Source of the DNA: a virus | Taxonomy: Duplodnaviria; Heunggongvirae; Uroviricota; Caudoviricetes | Strand: one strand, 5' to 3' | DNA: 43,384 nucleotides | IMG/VR virus record: IMGVR_UViG_2925908680_000005 | Coordinates: 1-43,384 of that record | In this document: positions 7,381 through 39,613 of the stretch, in pieces | How the letters are laid out: every line of letters starts with the position of its first letter | Position numbering within the stretch: position 1 is the stretch's first letter | Translations under genes and position numbers: made by a program | The notes under the pieces: generated by a model | Databases searched by the model: none | What the model was told of the DNA's origin: nothing | What the model saw: only the letters and a program-made list of their open reading frames with translations

Positions 7381-7395
7381 TTACCTTTTGGGTGA
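7381..7395. promoter_or_regulatory. imperfect copy of the TTACC-N5-GGTAA palindrome (TTACC TTTTG GGTGA) about 30 bp upstream of the acyltransferase start
   Basis: read directly. Confidence 0.35.
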
Positions 7396-7424
7396 TATAC
7401 TAATGGCAAATCAATGAGTAATAT

Positions 7425-8540
7425 ATGGACATCCTTTCAATGATAAAGAATGAATTAAAATCAATCCAAATTCTTAGAGGTTTGGCGGCACTTATGGTCG
7501 TTCTATACCACTTTAGGACCGTTCTTAATTATGATAATGTCAGGATGGGTGATTATCTTTTTGGTAAGGGGTTTATTGGTGTTGATTTATTTTTCGTAAT
7601 TAGTGGATTCATAATGGCTTACACGACCAACTTGACTCATGACGCTATTGCCGATGTAAAATCATTTGCAATTAAAAGGGTTAGTAGAATATATCCTGTT
7701 CTTTTTACTTCATTTATTATTGCGTCTTTATCATTCATGAATTTTGAAAGGGTATTATCACAGTCTTTTTTTGAAACACTAAGCAGCCTTGCCTTGATTC
7801 CTACAACAAGTTCTTTGCCGCCATTTTTTATAGATACACATTCAATACTTGGTGTTAGGTGGACTTTAAATTATGAGGTATATTTCTATTCTATTTTTGC
7901 GATATCTTTATTTTTTGGAAAGAGAAGGTATTATGTTCTACTGGCATGGATTATTATGACAGTATTTTTTACTCAAATACTAATTAATGGATCATTCAGT
8001 GCCAAGGCTGTAAGCCCTAGATTTGAAAGTCCATGGTTGTCAATGATTACAAACTCTATCGTTCTTGATTTTGCAATTGGCGTTATTGTAGCAATGGCAA
8101 TTGAGGCGGGAATAATAATAAATAGAAGATTATCAATTGCCTCTTTGGTTTTTGTTGCTTATGTTTCAATGAACCAGATAGCTGTAGTAAAGGGTCACGG
8201 ACTCTCAGAGTTTGGAATGTACGCAGCAATAATTGTTTATTTATGTGTTTGCCTTGAAAAAAATGGATTTAGTTTTAATTCGCCAGCGCTAGAGCATTTG
8301 GGTAATATTTCTTATTCTTTATACCTATTGCATCTGTCGGTAAGTACATTCATCGGAATAATAGTTACAAATCTCGGAGTTAGGGAATACTTTTCAAATG
8401 GCATTTATATGGTAACACTTGTAGCCATTAGTATAATGTCAGCACACATCTCGTATAAGTATATTGAGTTATCGCTATCGAGGAGGGTAAGAGGATGGAT
8501 GATGATAAAATCTGGCATCCTTGCCAAAAATAAAAATTAA
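7425..8540 (+). CDS. acyltransferase family 3 membrane protein (O-antigen acetyltransferase-like; likely lysogenic conversion gene)
   Basis: 371 aa, multi-pass membrane protein with family-3 N-terminus (RGLAALMVVLYHF...GVDLFFVISGF); strongly AT-rich relative to flanks; opposite strand to surrounding late genes. Confidence 0.8.
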   Translation: MDILSMIKNELKSIQILRGLAALMVVLYHFRTVLNYDNVRMGDYLFGKGFIGVDLFFVISGFIMAYTTNLTHDAIADVKSFAIKRVSRIYPVLFTSFIIASLSFMNFERVLSQSFFETLSSLALIPTTSSLPPFFIDTHSILGVRWTLNYEVYFYSIFAISLFFGKRRYYVLLAWIIMTVFFTQILINGSFSAKAVSPRFESPWLSMITNSIVLDFAIGVIVAMAIEAGIIINRRLSIASLVFVAYVSMNQIAVVKGHGLSEFGMYAAIIVYLCVCLEKNGFSFNSPALEHLGNISYSLYLLHLSVSTFIGIIVTNLGVREYFSNGIYMVTLVAISIMSAHISYKYIELSLSRRVRGWMMIKSGILAKNKN

Positions 8541-8541
8541 T

Positions 8542-10869
8542 CTACATATCTGATCCATCAGCATACTTCCAGGACTGAGCCAGCTGATCGAAATAAGCTG
8601 GTTTTTTTGTGTCCGTATTGTATATCATATGCCCATAGCCAAGTAATGACTTTTTAACTGAATTAATTTGAGTTGTTGTGCCTGATCGTATTATTCCTGA
8701 ATATCCAGCACTGATTAAAACCCACAGCGACCCAGTCCATATAATGGATGTGGTAAGATCGGTCTGATAGTAGCGCATTCCTTCATAACATATAGTTGGT
8801 CGTGCTGTTGATAGCCCCACCACCTTGAATCCAGCTGAGTTTTTCCATGACCCTGGAACATCATTCCAGAGGTAGTCTCCATATTCTGGGTCATAATAAC
8901 TGAAGCCGGATATTACTGAAGAGGTGAACGCCTTCCATATCCCTGTATTATCTAGGCTTCTTAATCTACACCTCTGAACGGTTGCGCCACCTGCGTTGAG
9001 GGGGTTTACTGTATTGTCAGCATTACGGCATGTAATATCTATATCAACATACAATGGGGCACTCTCTCTGGTTATGTTACTAAATCCTTGATAGTAACAT
9101 GCTGAGGATCGCAATGTTTCGCTTTGTATCCTGTCTGATTTCGAGTTATATACAGCAAGTGCATTAATTAATGCGAATGCTTCATTAACGTATGAACTTC
9201 CGACATCAGAAATTCGGTATGTATTTCTCCATTCAACGCCATTTGACACTCCTGATGATGGAGACCTGAATCTGAATGAATTATTACTTAACTTCAACTC
9301 AGAAACATACCAAGTAGCATCTGGCAATGCCGCATCTGAATCTTGAGGTGCGATTATTACTCCTGAGGCATATGTCCTTGCACTATTATTGCTTATCTCT
9401 ACGTAATCAGTAGACTGATTTTTCCTGCACGTGAACAATACAAATCCATACCCGCCAACAAGATCGTTATTATGTATATGCACTCGCTTCGAACCAATGC
9501 ATTTGAAGCAGCGCTCACTTGTTGTTTCTGCTTCCTCACTTGTGTAATCACGCATTATGGTTTTGTTATTGGAGATGAATACGCTCCTGTTGAATCCTGT
9601 TCCATCATTTTGTGATGAGCAATAAACCGCATGGCGGTCAAGCGGAGCCCCTGAAACACCAAAGATGCAGCTGTCAACTGACACCAGTTCACAATCAATT
9701 GGCACAGTGCCATAACCATACACACCTGCGTTCCAGTCCTGAGAGGCGAGTTGCTGGAAAACATTGTAATACTTAGCCCCATAGCACAGGTGAATCTGGG
9801 CGGTAACTGTGTTTACACATGCGCTGATGTTCCTCATCTCTGAGCTTTCATAATGTGCGTAAACGTTATTTACCGTAATCCCTACAACAGCCCGACCTAC
9901 ACCGCGAACTTTACCACCGTCTATCTTCACTTTAGTGGTTACACTTTCCACGCCAGTTCCGTCAAAAGTCAGAACCTGGTAGTAAGTGTTAGCGTCTTTT
10001 GGGGTGAAATTAATCCAACCATCAGCTGTTGAAGTGATGGAAATATCTCTACCATTTAGAGATTTACGGATTGGAGTTGTGATGTTCTGCACGTTATCTA
10101 CCAGGACATCAGCATTTTTACCAAGAGCCAGAATAATAGCAGGCTCTAATCCACCAGCCTCTGATGTTTTTACAAGGCCTCTTACACCACCGATATGGGT
10201 AAATCCATCTTTCTTGGCAAGTTCAATTAGTACATCAGATGCGGATCCTGATGGTGGCATAACCACAAAGGGATTGCCCAAACCATCAAAAGCGATAATT
10301 TTGTTAGCCCGCGTTACAGCATCAGGAAGTTGAGGAATGTTCTCTGGTACTCGAAGCGTCCGATTAAGGTTGCTGTTTGCAAGTGTATCAACATAATTTT
10401 TAGTGGCTGCGTCTTGAGGTTTTGAAGGATCACGCAAATTTCTGATGTAATTATTCAAAGCATTATAATAGTTTGCCACGAATGATGGCTTGCGAAGCGC
10501 TAGGTTAAACCAACTTCTAACCTGCTGGATCAACATCGTTAGCTTATCAAAAGCATCCTCATGCACTTCTGCAAAGAACTTACCCTGATTACGCAAATCA
10601 GTTTCCTGCGTAACCGGGAGGTCTCGTGATATAGAAATCTGATAACCGTTAGCCAACGCCTTCGACAGAATTACATTACCGCCGTTGTACCCTCCCGCAC
10701 CAGTTACTGTGTAATCAGTATCAAGAGCCAGCACAGCGATATTTTCATCAAGGTCAACCACCTGAACAACCAGGTCGGATTTTTTGAAAATACGGAAGGT
10801 ATACGGAAATGATGTCGTAGCGCCGTTACCGGTGTATTCGTTGTGGTCAACTTCGGTTGAGACCGTCAT
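8542..10869 (-). CDS. tailspike / tail fibre protein (conserved N-terminal anchor domain, C-terminal receptor-binding region)
   Basis: 775 aa; N-terminus MTVSTEVDHNEYTGNGATTSFPYTFRIF resembles conserved tail-fibre N-terminal domains; adjacent to O-antigen modifying gene. Confidence 0.7.
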   Translation of the reverse strand: MTVSTEVDHNEYTGNGATTSFPYTFRIFKKSDLVVQVVDLDENIAVLALDTDYTVTGAGGYNGGNVILSKALANGYQISISRDLPVTQETDLRNQGKFFAEVHEDAFDKLTMLIQQVRSWFNLALRKPSFVANYYNALNNYIRNLRDPSKPQDAATKNYVDTLANSNLNRTLRVPENIPQLPDAVTRANKIIAFDGLGNPFVVMPPSGSASDVLIELAKKDGFTHIGGVRGLVKTSEAGGLEPAIILALGKNADVLVDNVQNITTPIRKSLNGRDISITSTADGWINFTPKDANTYYQVLTFDGTGVESVTTKVKIDGGKVRGVGRAVVGITVNNVYAHYESSEMRNISACVNTVTAQIHLCYGAKYYNVFQQLASQDWNAGVYGYGTVPIDCELVSVDSCIFGVSGAPLDRHAVYCSSQNDGTGFNRSVFISNNKTIMRDYTSEEAETTSERCFKCIGSKRVHIHNNDLVGGYGFVLFTCRKNQSTDYVEISNNSARTYASGVIIAPQDSDAALPDATWYVSELKLSNNSFRFRSPSSGVSNGVEWRNTYRISDVGSSYVNEAFALINALAVYNSKSDRIQSETLRSSACYYQGFSNITRESAPLYVDIDITCRNADNTVNPLNAGGATVQRCRLRSLDNTGIWKAFTSSVISGFSYYDPEYGDYLWNDVPGSWKNSAGFKVVGLSTARPTICYEGMRYYQTDLTTSIIWTGSLWVLISAGYSGIIRSGTTTQINSVKKSLLGYGHMIYNTDTKKPAYFDQLAQSWKYADGSDM
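8580..8608 (+). terminator. intrinsic terminator for the acyltransferase gene, lying inside the 3' end of the convergent tailspike gene
   Basis: stem CCAGCT/AGCTGG with 10-nt loop followed by TTTTTTT. Confidence 0.6.
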
Positions 10870-38894: not shown

Positions 38895-39479
38895 ATGAAA
38901 AGTATCCAGGACGTCCGCAGGCAAAATCTCAACGACTTGATCGACCGTGAATTCAATGGTGTTCAGACGCGGATGGCAGAAAAACTTGGAACTCAGGCAA
39001 ATCTGGTAAACCGCTGGGCTCTTGGCAAGAAGGTTATCGGCGACCAGGTTGCGCGAAAAATTGAAGCTGCCGCCAATAAACCCCGTAACTGGCTTGATAT
39101 CGATCGCTCGCTTTCTCAAGAAGGTTTTCAGCCTGTCGGACCAAGCGACATTGGTCAGCTGGCGGCTCACAACCTGGAACGCTGGATGAGCGAAAGCCGA
39201 GACCTTTCAACGCAGGGAAAACTTCACCGCGCATCCGGCGTCGCCCAGGTGACAATCAGCCGCCTGTTAAACAATGAGGTCAGCGTTTCCATTTCCACCC
39301 TGGAGAATGTTGCATCCGCATTCGGGCGTCACGGCTATGAATTACTGATTCACCCGCACGACCCTGCGACTATCAACTATGATCGCTCGCGCTACGCATT
39401 GTTACCTGAAACAGAGAAGGCAAAGATCGAAAGTTACATTGAATTTGTCATCAACCAGAACGAAAAAAGCAAACAATAA
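38895..39479 (+). CDS. immunity repressor-like protein with two HTH domains and no recognisable LexA-type autocleavage domain
   Basis: 194 aa; two XRE-type HTH-like segments; no Ala-Gly/Ser-Lys peptidase motif seen. Confidence 0.6.
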   Translation: MKSIQDVRRQNLNDLIDREFNGVQTRMAEKLGTQANLVNRWALGKKVIGDQVARKIEAAANKPRNWLDIDRSLSQEGFQPVGPSDIGQLAAHNLERWMSESRDLSTQGKLHRASGVAQVTISRLLNNEVSVSISTLENVASAFGRHGYELLIHPHDPATINYDRSRYALLPETEKAKIESYIEFVINQNEKSKQ

Positions 39480-39500
39480 AACTATAGTTTTCAGAAAGTA

Positions 39501-39525
39501 AGCCGCCTCATGGCGGCTTTTTTAT
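39501..39525 (+). terminator. intrinsic terminator after repressor gene
   Basis: AGCCGCC-TCAT-GGCGGCT stem followed by TTTTTTA. Confidence 0.75.
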
Positions 39526-39536
39526 TGCCCATGAAA

Positions 39537-39613
39537 TTACCTTACGGGTAATTTTTTTAACTCATATCTATTGACAACAAACCAAATACGCATAATTATT
39601 ACCTCAACGGTAA
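39537..39613 (+). promoter_or_regulatory. PL-like early promoter (TTGACA 39571-39576, 16-bp spacer, ATAATT 39593-39598) bracketed by two perfect operator palindromes (39537-39551 and 39599-39613)
   Basis: read directly. Confidence 0.6.

What the first reader, a model, noticed from the sequence alone, without database searches (positions are those of the whole stretch)
7381..39613. Genome-wide network of a 15-bp palindrome TTACC-N5-GGTAA in promoter regions
Nine perfect copies (10974, 11354, 30207, 33023, 36360, 36422, 38825, 39537, 39599) and about five imperfect copies (3831, 7381, 38440, 38777, 38808) were found. A 10-base-defined palindrome is expected about 0.04 times by chance in 43 kb. 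Nearly all are intergenic and several overlap promoter elements: three between cro-like and repressor genes, two around the PL-like promoter, two around an internal early promoter, one each at the antirepressor promoter, the tRNA leader promoter and the packaging operon head. This suggests one phage DNA-binding protein controlling many transcription units, reminiscent of stoperator-type immunity systems.
Basis: seen in the sequence. Interest (0 to 1): 0.7.

Follow-up and report, generated by a model that had tools for sequence, protein, structure and literature searches.

The report
Known repressor operators of ε15-like phage
The repeated 15-bp palindrome is real and is the operator of the prophage's main repressor (Rep), placed in front of nearly every transcription unit; the same sites are already annotated in the related Salmonella phage ε15, so it is a correct but ordinary finding.

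Summary
There are nine perfect TTACC-N5-GGTAA copies at the stated coordinates, against 0.03 expected. None lies in real coding sequence. It is the most abundant 5-Nx-5 palindrome in the window and in five related genomes.

The window is a phiV10/ε15-like temperate podovirus (Uetakevirus). The GenBank record of ε15 already marks seven dispersed "protein_bind: repressor" sites, and these are exactly this motif. The window encodes the full SPC32H-type switch:
- Rep, a full-length homologue of PDB 5D50.
- Ant, 87% identical to SPC32H Ant.
- A LexA box in front of ant.

Operator geometry is conserved across six genomes:
- Three sites between cro-like and rep.
- Pairs 62 bp apart bracketing PL and a middle promoter.
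- An operator starting at the last base of the -10 at three promoters.
- A tandem pair before terS.
- Single sites at fixed distances upstream of the head, tail-fibre and lysis operons.

Distant homologues of the Rep N-terminal domain in unrelated phages use TACC-type palindromes only at their own OL/OR. This ties the half-site to Rep.

The stoperator analogy and the "tRNA promoter" assignment are not. Verdict: already known, low interest.

The parts
38895..39479 (+). rep: immunity repressor, 194 aa, with an N-terminal HTH DNA-binding domain plus dimerisation and Ant-binding/tetramerisation domains
   Evidence: Full-length match to the SPC32H repressor PDB 5D50 (E 3.5e-42). 99.5% identical to phiV10 p40. 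The helix NLVNRW is invariant in six genomes. No peptidase S24 domain was found.
38510..38740 (-). cro-like gene (76 aa), divergent from rep
   Evidence: 100% identical to phiV10 p41. The HTH-like stretch AGTTSHYIQ is invariant.
38777..38791 (.). OR1, TCACCCATAAGGTAA (1 mismatch); covers the spacer and part of the -35 of the cro-like promoter
   Evidence: The PR-like promoter is 38794->38766, TTGTTA-17-TATTAT. The TCACC variant is conserved at this position in phiV10, ε15, SPC32H and Tyrion.
38808..38822 (.). OR2, TTACCTATGGGGTGC (2 mismatches); its start is 17 bp before that of OR3
   Evidence: Orthologous to the perfect sites at ε15 33358 and SPC32H 34407.
38825..38839 (.). OR3, a perfect operator 56 bp upstream of the rep start codon
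39537..39551 (.). OL distal operator, ending 19 bp upstream of the -35 of PL
   Evidence: The 62-bp spacing to the proximal operator is 62-63 bp in all six genomes.
39571..39599 (+). PL-like promoter, TTGACA-17-AATTAT, driving the early-left operon (p39, p38, recE/T, AlpA, PerC, dam)
   Evidence: Best sigma-70 match in the region, 10 of 12.
39599..39613 (.). OL proximal operator; starts at the last base of the PL -10 and covers the transcription start
36422..36436 (.). Middle-promoter distal operator
   Evidence: Lies 62 bp from 36360.
36374..36402 (-). Middle promoter, TTGATT-17-TTTAAT, in front of the DUF1064 gene; built like PL
   Evidence: Read from the sequence. Same layout as PL: cTATTGA..-17-..AAT|TACC.
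36360..36374 (.). Middle-promoter proximal operator; starts at the last base of the -10 and ends 3 nt before the DUF1064 ATG
33023..33037 (.). terS operator 1 (perfect), between the early-right terminator and the terS start
   Evidence: Terminator at 33074->33057. ε15 annotates the orthologous site 12-27 as a repressor site.
33005..33019 (.). terS operator 2 (1 mismatch); its start is 18 bp from that of operator 1, and it abuts the true terS start codon
   Evidence: The same imperfect partner is present in phiV10 (105), ε15 (30) and Tyrion (85).
30207..30221 (.). Head-operon operator, 91 bp upstream of p06/portal
   Evidence: ε15 2931-2947 is annotated as a repressor site. The 41-bp gap to the CATATGTGGTT box is identical in six genomes.
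10974..10988 (.). Operator in the divergent tail-fibre / ant intergenic region
   Evidence: ε15 19895-19911 is annotated as a repressor site. The 29-bp gap to the late box on the tail-fibre strand is conserved.
11028..11043 (.). LexA box CTGTATAAATATACAG directly upstream of ant
   Evidence: Conserved in six genomes.
11065..11322 (+). ant: small SPC32H-type antirepressor (85 aa)
   Evidence: 87% identical to SPC32H Ant. 98.8% identical to phiV10 p24.
11326..11354 (+). Promoter TTGAAA-17-TATATT of the P1 immI-like module (isrK-like RNA, C4 RNA, Bro-N antirepressor)
   Evidence: 10 of 12 match. Rfam hits: isrK at 11405-11481 and C4 at 11500-11586. Bro-N domain.
11354..11368 (.). Operator starting at the last base of the -10 of the immI-like promoter
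   Evidence: Orthologous sites are present in phiV10, Tyrion and BUCT711.
7381..7395 (.). Weak operator (1 mismatch, GGTGA) in the divergent lysis-operon / acyltransferase intergenic region
   Evidence: A perfect site sits at the same place in ε15 (24704). The 32-bp gap to the late box is conserved.
38440..38454 (.). Degenerate operator-like site (2 mismatches) just downstream of the cro-like terminator and upstream of p42
   Evidence: One-mismatch sites sit at the same place in phiV10 (33112), Tyrion (35365) and BUCT711 (6032).

Best explanation
The palindromes are the operators of the prophage's Rep repressor. The extended consensus is w-A-TTACC-nnWnn-GGTAA-T-w.

Shown or taken from cited sources:
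- The window encodes a full-length homologue of SPC32H Rep.
- Cited work describes SPC32H Rep as an N-terminal DNA-binding domain, a middle dimerisation domain, and a C-terminal tetramerisation/Ant-binding domain. It binds DNA as a tetramer.
- Cited work describes SPC32H Ant as a tetramer that binds two Rep dimers and breaks up the Rep tetramer.

Inferred for the lysogen:
- Each pair of N-terminal domains reads one palindrome, so a tetramer can hold two operators.
- At PL and at the middle promoter, two operators 62 bp apart (about six helical turns) bracket the -35 and -10. The proximal operator starts at the last base of the -10, so it blocks initiation and the pair probably loops the promoter.
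- The same proximal geometry shuts the promoter of the isrK/C4/Bro-N antirepressor module.
- Between cro-like and rep, three operators of graded quality form the switch. The weakest-looking, the TCACC variant, lies over the cro-like promoter.
- Two abutting operators sit between a terminator and the terS start.
- Single operators sit at fixed distances upstream of the -35-less promoters of the head, tail-fibre and lysis operons.

Inferred for induction: DNA damage removes LexA from the box in front of ant. Ant then binds the Rep C-terminal domains and dismantles the tetramers. All operators are freed together.
For: The motif is real and specific, and 9 of 9 perfect sites are non-coding.

ε15 record AY150271.2 annotates seven 'protein_bind: repressor / lysogeny' sites. 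All are TTACC-N5-GGTAA.

The switch components are present:
- Rep is homologous to PDB 5D50 over its full length.
- Ant is 87% identical to SPC32H Ant.
- A conserved LexA box precedes ant.

Operators sit at orthologous positions in phiV10, ε15, SPC32H, Tyrion and BUCT711, with conserved half-sites and free spacers. This holds although Rep is only 43-45% identical between subgroups, and its helix NLVNRW is invariant.

At three promoters the first base of the operator is the last base of the -10. At PR the operator covers the -35 and spacer.

Distant homologues of the Rep N-terminal domain (34-40% identity) occur in unrelated phages. They carry TACC-type palindromes at their own OR/OL, and in the one full genome checked (PseuP_224) only there. 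The PseuP_224 Cro is unrelated to the window's cro-like protein.

Rep's tetramer and domain architecture, and tetramer disassembly by Ant, are summarised in PMC9638917 and PMC9986798.
Against: - I could read no direct binding data for these sites. The ε15 and SPC32H primary papers are not held.
- The cro-like protein has an equally invariant HTH-like stretch and may share the sites.
- At the head, tail-fibre and lysis operons the operator lies about 60-85 bp upstream of the likely start. It does not overlap core promoter elements, so simple occlusion does not explain repression there.
- Site 7381 falls in the spacer of a sigma-70-like promoter of the acyltransferase gene. That gene is expected to be expressed in lysogens.
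- No recognisable promoter accompanies the terS pair.
Confidence: 0.86

Rival explanations
1. The dispersed palindromes are bound mainly by the cro-like protein, acting as a lytic-phase regulator, rather than by Rep. Rep would act only in the immunity region.
For: The cro-like protein is highly conserved, with an invariant HTH-like stretch AGTTSHYIQ. In lambdoid switches Cro and CI share operators (established knowledge).
Against: The ε15 depositors assign the dispersed sites to the repressor. The TACC half-site follows homologues of the Rep N-terminal domain into unrelated phages, and PseuP_224's Cro shows no similarity to this cro-like protein. The cro-like protein has no significant Pfam hit.
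Confidence: 0.05
2. The sites act as stoperator-like roadblocks that stop elongating RNA polymerase, as the first reader suggested by analogy.
For: The sites are dispersed genome-wide. The terS pair sits between a terminator and the start codon, with no recognisable promoter. The degenerate site 38440 lies just after the cro-like terminator.
Against: - The sites are palindromic, so they cannot be orientation-specific.
- None of the 9 perfect sites, and none of the perfect sites in five relatives, lies inside a credibly annotated gene; the exceptions are one site in phiV10's over-called terS start and two sites in a doubtful Tyrion ORF annotated across its OL region.
- Four sites overlap core promoter elements.
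Confidence: 0.03
3. At the -35-less late promoters (head, tail fibre, lysis) the palindrome is an upstream activator site, used by Rep or the cro-like protein, rather than a repressing operator.
For: Each late operon has a fixed operator-to-box distance that is identical in six genomes: 41, 29 and 32 bp. The operator centres lie at roughly -67 to -79, and there is no -35 hexamer.
Against: The three distances are not in one helical phase. The same palindrome is clearly repressive at PL, the middle promoter and the immI-like promoter. There is no experimental support.
Confidence: 0.06
4. The motif is not regulatory. It could be a restriction/modification target or a recombination or packaging signal.
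For: Bipartite palindromes with an N5 spacer can be enzyme recognition sites (general knowledge).
Against: The motif is exclusively non-coding and placed at the heads of operons. It overlaps -10/+1 elements and forms a tripartite array between rep and cro-like.
Confidence: 0.01

Closest known systems
Predicted repressor operators of Salmonella phage ε15 (GenBank AY150271.2; described from memory in Kropinski et al. 2007, Virology 369:234, which I could not read here)
   Same: The half-sites and spacer length are identical. The sites are dispersed in the same way: before terS, before the head operon, between ant/gp19 and the tailspike gene, in the PL region, and before the middle operon. The genus is the same (Uetakevirus), and so is the gene order.
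   Different: The window's Rep is only 43% identical to ε15 gp38. The ε15 record does not mark the three OR sites, the lysis-operon site or the second middle-promoter site, although the motif is present there. The window adds an operator at an isrK/C4/Bro-N module that ε15 lacks.
Rep-Ant lytic switch of Salmonella phage SPC32H (PDB 5D50, 5D4Z; Kim & Ryu 2013; Kim et al. 2016)
   Same: The window has a full-length Rep homologue, an Ant 87% identical, and a LexA box in front of ant. SPC32H carries 10 perfect copies of the same palindrome at the same places.
   Different: The window phage is of the phiV10 type. It has a diverged Rep C-terminal half and a second, P1 immI-like antirepressor module, here interrupted by an IS element.
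Phage P1 C1 repressor network with the immI (c4 RNA-icd-ant) operon (own knowledge: Lobocka et al. 2004)
   Same: One repressor has many operators scattered over the genome and controls separate operons. These include the promoter of a C4 antisense RNA / antirepressor module, and the repressor is inactivated by an antirepressor. The window has Rfam C4 and isrK hits directly downstream of operator 11354.
   Different: P1 operators are asymmetric 17-mers, and C1 is not an HTH_3-type protein like Rep. P1 late operons are not C1-controlled. Here palindromic sites also precede the packaging, head, tail-fibre and lysis operons.
Stoperators of mycobacteriophage L5 gp71 (own knowledge: Brown et al. 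1997)
   Same: Many repressor sites lie outside the immunity region, and a single repressor silences the prophage globally.
   Different: Stoperators are asymmetric 13-mers. They are orientation-dependent, lie within transcribed regions, and stop elongation. The sites here are palindromic, non-coding and promoter-linked.
Lambda-type CI/Cro switch
   Same: rep and cro-like are transcribed divergently, with three operators of unequal quality between them and further operators at PL. The cI N-terminal domains of H-19B/Stx phages are distant homologues of the Rep N-terminal domain and have related half-sites.
   Different: Rep has no S24 autocleavage domain. Induction is through a LexA-controlled antirepressor. 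Operators are not confined to OL and OR.

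Membership tests
Uetakevirus (ε15 / phiV10 / SPC32H) Rep operators | Sequence identical to the sites annotated as repressor-binding in ε15 | tested here: met
   All seven ε15 'protein_bind: repressor' features are TTACC-N5-GGTAA. The window has nine perfect copies.
Uetakevirus (ε15 / phiV10 / SPC32H) Rep operators | Cognate Rep repressor encoded in the same genome | tested here: met
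   Window 38895-39479 matches PDB 5D50 over its full length, E 3.5e-42. The helix NLVNRW is invariant across six genomes.
Uetakevirus (ε15 / phiV10 / SPC32H) Rep operators | Conserved syntenic placement: OR triple, OL pair, middle-promoter pair, terS tandem, head, tail-fibre/ant and lysis sites | tested here: met
   The pair spacing is 62-63 bp in all six genomes and the operator-to-box gaps are identical.
Uetakevirus (ε15 / phiV10 / SPC32H) Rep operators | LexA-controlled small antirepressor Ant | tested here: met
   Ant is 87% identical to SPC32H Ant. The LexA box is at 11028-11043.
Uetakevirus (ε15 / phiV10 / SPC32H) Rep operators | Physical binding of Rep to the palindrome | not testable with these tools
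   The primary papers are not held. The PDB holds no Rep-DNA complex.
Stoperators (L5 gp71 type) | Asymmetric site acting in one orientation relative to transcription | tested here: not met
   The site is a perfect palindrome with a symmetric extended consensus.
Stoperators (L5 gp71 type) | Sites located within transcribed regions or genes, away from promoters | tested here: not met
   None of the 9 perfect sites is in real coding sequence. Four overlap core promoter elements.
Stoperators (L5 gp71 type) | Block of elongation rather than initiation | not testable with these tools
   Needs transcription assays. Only the terS pair and 38440 are placed so that a roadblock is conceivable.
Lambda-type CI/Cro switch | Tripartite operator between divergent repressor and cro genes | tested here: met
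   Sites 38777, 38808 and 38825 lie between cro-like (-) and rep (+).
Lambda-type CI/Cro switch | RecA-stimulated autocleavage domain (peptidase S24) in the repressor | tested here: not met
   Pfam finds only HTH families in Rep.
Lambda-type CI/Cro switch | Operators confined to OL and OR | tested here: not met
   Sites also occur at terS, the head, tail-fibre/ant and lysis operons, the middle promoter and the immI-like promoter.
P1 C1 / immI network | Repressor-controlled promoter in front of a C4 antisense RNA plus antirepressor operon | tested here: met
   Promoter 11326-11354 with operator 11354-11368. isrK and C4 RNAs at 11405-11586. Bro-N ORF.
P1 C1 / immI network | Asymmetric 17-bp C1 operators and a C1-family repressor | tested here: not met
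   The operators here are palindromic. Rep is an HTH_3/SPC32H-type protein. Homology to C1 itself was not tested.

The most novel reading that the evidence does not exclude
The late operons (head, tail fibre, lysis) and the middle promoter share an undescribed box, CATATRTGGTT. It lies at a fixed distance downstream of a Rep operator: 41, 29, 32 and 31 bp, identical in six genomes. In the three late operons it is followed 7 nt later by a -10-like hexamer, and there is no -35. If this is real, Uetakeviruses would have a flat regulatory design. One tetrameric repressor would directly gate every promoter, including activator-dependent late ones, from an upstream position. It might do so by bridging to the GGTAAT half-site that forms the late -10. 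A second conserved palindrome, GTGACATGTCAC, at operon ends may belong to the same unknown late-control system.
Probability: 0.25. Interest if true: 0.4.

Novelty: already known. Interest (0 to 1): 0.15.

Why it matters
It matters little as a discovery. The dispersed repressor sites of ε15-like phages are already in the public annotation, and the Rep-Ant switch has been solved structurally.

The check still has practical value:
- It transfers the operator map to phiV10-type E. coli prophages, whose records lack it.
- It corrects an over-called terS start.
- It shows that the pair spacing of 62 bp and the junction of the -10 with the operator are strictly conserved. This gives a concrete geometry for testing DNA looping by the Rep tetramer.

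How late genes are switched on in this genus remains open. The conserved late box and its fixed distance to the operator are a usable starting point.

Tried and rejected
- **Primary papers.** I tried to read ε15 (PMC2698709, PMID 17825342) and SPC32H (PMC4983836, PMC3807360). None is held. I relied on the GenBank annotation and on secondary descriptions.
- **Literature searches.** Searches for the motif, for SPC32H operators, and for the two extra motifs found nothing relevant. The vB_EcoP_ZX5 paper discusses the repressor and antirepressor but gives no operator sequences.
- **Gene map.** A greedy longest-ORF gene map was too noisy. I replaced it with a map transferred from phiV10 by tblastn.
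- **2-mismatch excess.** The apparent excess of 2-mismatch matches over shuffles (43 vs 12 at up to 2 mismatches) is background. Control spacings and arrangements give similar numbers.
- **Site 3831.** Rejected: wrong spacing and a degenerate half-site.
- **Site 7553.** It lies inside the acyltransferase gene and is treated as chance.
- **P_rep and terS promoters.** I could not define a convincing sigma-70 promoter for rep or for terS. These are left open.
- **MqsA.** A resemblance to the MqsA palindrome (ACCT-N3-AGGT, from memory) was considered and not pursued. The outer bases differ, and the phage encodes its own cognate repressor.

Full report
**Observation.** There are thirteen sites with up to one mismatch, against 0.56 expected. 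An unbiased count of all 5-Nx-5 palindromes puts this one first in the window. Controls show perfect matches only with the N5 spacer. Other spacings and direct arrangements give none, and everted arrangements give at most one perfect match at any spacing. The 2-mismatch class exceeds shuffles but lies within the range of real-sequence controls (11-40 hits), so it is noise.

All four lie where relatives also have a site. Site 3831 is not a match, because its spacing is wrong.

**What the window is.** The immunity region is 97-98% identical to Escherichia phage phiV10 and its relatives in the genus Uetakevirus. tblastn of the phiV10 proteins gives a collinear map of almost the whole window in the reverse orientation. 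On that map only 6.3% of the window is intergenic, yet eight of the nine perfect sites are intergenic (P = 2e-9). The ninth, 33023, lies in the first 80 bp of the phiV10-style terS ORF. Comparison with ε15 shows that the real start, ATG(ATG)CCTGCTGAACC, lies downstream of both terS sites. So no perfect site is in coding sequence.

**It is already annotated.** The ε15 record AY150271.2 carries seven features of the form "protein_bind, repressor, lysogeny". They lie before terS, before the head operon, between gp19 and the tailspike gene, three in the PL region, and one before the RuvC-like middle operon. Every one is TTACC-N5-GGTAA. ε15 has eleven perfect copies in all. phiV10 has eight, SPC32H ten, and Tyrion and Klebsiella phage BUCT711 nine each. 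In all six genomes it is the most abundant palindrome of its class. From memory, the ε15 genome paper (Kropinski et al. 2007) proposed these as operators of gp38, the genetically identified repressor. I could not open that paper.

**The protein partners.** Window 38895-39479 encodes a 194-aa protein that matches the SPC32H repressor structure 5D50 over its whole length (E 3.5e-42). Pfam sees two HTH regions and no S24 peptidase domain. Window 11065-11322 encodes a protein 87% identical to the SPC32H antirepressor Ant. Directly upstream lies a consensus LexA box, CTGTATAAATATACAG (11028-11043), which is conserved in all six genomes.

Secondary sources describe SPC32H Rep as an N-terminal DNA-binding domain, a middle dimerisation domain and a C-terminal tetramerisation/Ant-binding domain. 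It binds palindromic DNA as a tetramer whose DNA-binding pairs come from different dimers. It is released when tetrameric Ant captures two Rep dimers (PMC9638917; PMC9986798). The latter paper also notes that the structural mechanism of repression is not well characterised.

**Anatomy of the sites.** Symmetrised over 53 distinct perfect sites from six genomes, the consensus extends to w-A-TTACC-nnWnn-GGTAA-T-w. The central base is A or T in 104 of 106 cases. The other spacer positions are nearly free and the flanks beyond position ±2 carry no information.

- *PL.* TTGACA-17-AATTAT (39571-39599) is the best sigma-70 match in the region. One operator starts at the last base of the -10 (39599). 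A second starts 62 bp upstream of the first and ends 19 bp before the -35.
- *Middle promoter.* The same cassette is repeated on the minus strand in front of the DUF1064 gene. The layout is distal operator 36422-36436, TTGATT-17-TTTAAT, then the proximal operator beginning at the last base of the -10.
- *Pair spacing.* The spacing is 62 bp at both promoters in five of the six genomes. In BUCT711 the OL pair is 63 bp apart and the middle-promoter pair 62 bp.
- *Third promoter.* TTGAAA-17-TATATT (11326-11354) has the same junction between the -10 and the operator. It drives RNAs that match Rfam isrK and C4, followed by a Bro-N antirepressor ORF. This is a P1 immI-like module.
- *Between cro-like and rep.* There are three sites: 38777, 38808 and 38825. 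Site 38777 is a conserved TCACC variant. It lies over the -35 and spacer of the cro-like promoter TTGTTA-17-TATTAT.
- *Before terS.* Two abutting sites fill the space between a rho-independent terminator and the start codon.

**Late operons.** Alignments of the regions upstream of the head, lysis and tail-fibre genes show a conserved operator with a freely varying spacer. A shared box, CATATRTGGTT, follows at a fixed distance: 41, 32 and 29 bp, and 31 bp at the middle promoter. These gaps are identical in all genomes that have the site. Seven nucleotides after the box comes a -10-like hexamer (TAATAA, TAATAG or TATGAT). There is no -35. These look like activator-dependent late promoters, with the Rep operator centred roughly 67-79 bp upstream of the start. 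How Rep would act from there is not clear. I found no literature on this box.

**Who binds.** Both Rep and the cro-like protein have invariant HTH-like stretches across the six genomes. To separate them, I looked at distant homologues of the Rep N-terminal domain (34-40% identity) in unrelated phages.

- Pseudomonas phage PseuP_224 cI has TTACC-N4-GGTAA only at the two ends of its cI gene.
- Psychrobacter phage pOW20-A has five ATACC-N5-GGTAT-type sites at its OR and OL.
- H-19B cI has TTACC-N5-GATAA-type sites.
- Moraxella phage Mcat9 has TTACC-N5-GATAA.

The Cro of PseuP_224 shows no similarity to the window's cro-like protein. The half-site therefore travels with the Rep-type N-terminal domain. 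What is special to Uetakeviruses is the spread of the sites over the whole genome.

**Mechanism, with status.**

- *Shown.* The motif, its placement, its conservation, and the presence of Rep, Ant and the LexA box.
- *From established or cited work.* Rep is a tetramer with two DNA-binding pairs. Ant dismantles it. From memory of Kim & Ryu 2013, LexA controls ant.
- *Inferred.* Rep occupies all the listed operators in the lysogen. It blocks initiation where the operator covers the -10/+1 (PL, the middle promoter, the immI-like promoter) or the -35 (PR). The 62-bp pairs are held by one tetramer, which loops the promoter. SOS induction of Ant frees all units together.
- *Open.* The role of the upstream single sites at late promoters, the promoter of terS, and the meaning of the weak site in the acyltransferase/lysis intergenic region.

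**Comparison and verdict.** The finding is a member of the ε15/SPC32H Rep operator set. All testable defining features are met. It works like the dispersed C1 operator network of P1, including control of a C4/antirepressor module, but it is unrelated in sequence and symmetry. It is not a stoperator system, because the sites are palindromic, non-coding and promoter-linked. The most novel residue is the fixed coupling between the operator and the late box, together with a second conserved palindrome at operon ends. I could not place either in the literature.

Noticed in passing
window 1-3824 (minus strand): There are two large genes between the integrase and the end of the early-left operon. They are absent from phiV10 and from every phage record searched. 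They form a Gabija defence system: GajA at 1863-3824 (E 5e-238) and GajB at 1-1866 (E 6e-215). The integrase (3873-5108) is only 54% identical to that of phiV10.
   Followed up: partly
window 11916-13189 (minus strand): An IS3-family insertion sequence (HTH_Tnp_1 ORF plus rve integrase-core ORF) interrupts the Bro-N antirepressor gene. The N-terminal part of the gene maps at 11635-11919 and the C-terminal part at 13235-13492.
   Followed up: partly
window 11405-11481 and 11500-11586 (+): Rfam matches to the isrK Hfq-binding RNA (74.7 bits) and the C4 antisense RNA (79.5 bits). They lie directly downstream of operator 11354 and upstream of, or overlapping, the Bro-N ORF. This is a P1 immI-like secondary immunity module in a podovirus.
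   Followed up: partly
window 13700-13711, 30851-30862, 33116-33127: A second conserved perfect palindrome, GTGACATGTCAC. It occurs two or three times in each of the six Uetakevirus genomes. In most copies it lies at the 3' end of an operon: after terL, after the last structural gene, and after the last early-right gene, where the stop codon TGA lies inside it. It is next to a terminator hairpin. It is not annotated in ε15 and not found in the literature search.
   Followed up: partly
window 7338-7348, 10934-10944, 30155-30165, 36380-36390 (minus strand): A conserved box, CATATRTGGTT, lies at fixed distances downstream of Rep operators. These are the lysis, tail-fibre, head and middle promoters. 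At the three late operons it is followed 7 nt later by a -10-like hexamer, with no -35. This is probably an activator-dependent late promoter element.
   Followed up: partly
window 37678-37793: Five tandem copies of a 24-bp unit (TGGGATCATTCAACATCCCGTTTT) lie inside the DnaT-like replication gene. They are probably iterons of the replication origin.
   Followed up: no
window 30544-30620 (+): A tRNA-Arg(TCT) gene lies antisense to the late genes. It overlaps the ORF that phiV10 annotates as hypothetical protein p04 (window 30550-30801, minus strand), which is therefore doubtful. SPC32H annotates the tRNA at the same place.
   Followed up: partly
window 33003-33083 (minus strand); L001 41-130: The phiV10 terS annotation starts about 80 bp too far upstream. 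It runs through a terminator tail and both operators. The ε15/SPC32H-type start matches ATG(ATG)CCTGCTGAACC at about 33003.
   Followed up: yes
window 40084-40905 and 40875-41843 (+): The recE-like and recT-like genes are two overlapping ORFs here, as in ε15, SPC32H and Tyrion. phiV10 annotates a single fused recET gene.
   Followed up: no
L006 10906-10950 and 11768-11822; L008 1380-1446 and 2287-2330; L007 1408-1480: Distant homologues of the Rep N-terminal domain occur in unrelated lambdoid phages (PseuP_224, pOW20-A, H-19B, Mcat9). They use TACC-type palindromes with N4 or N5 spacers at their own OR and OL. PseuP_224 also has an unannotated YdaS-family cro-like ORF at 11851-12081.
   Followed up: partly
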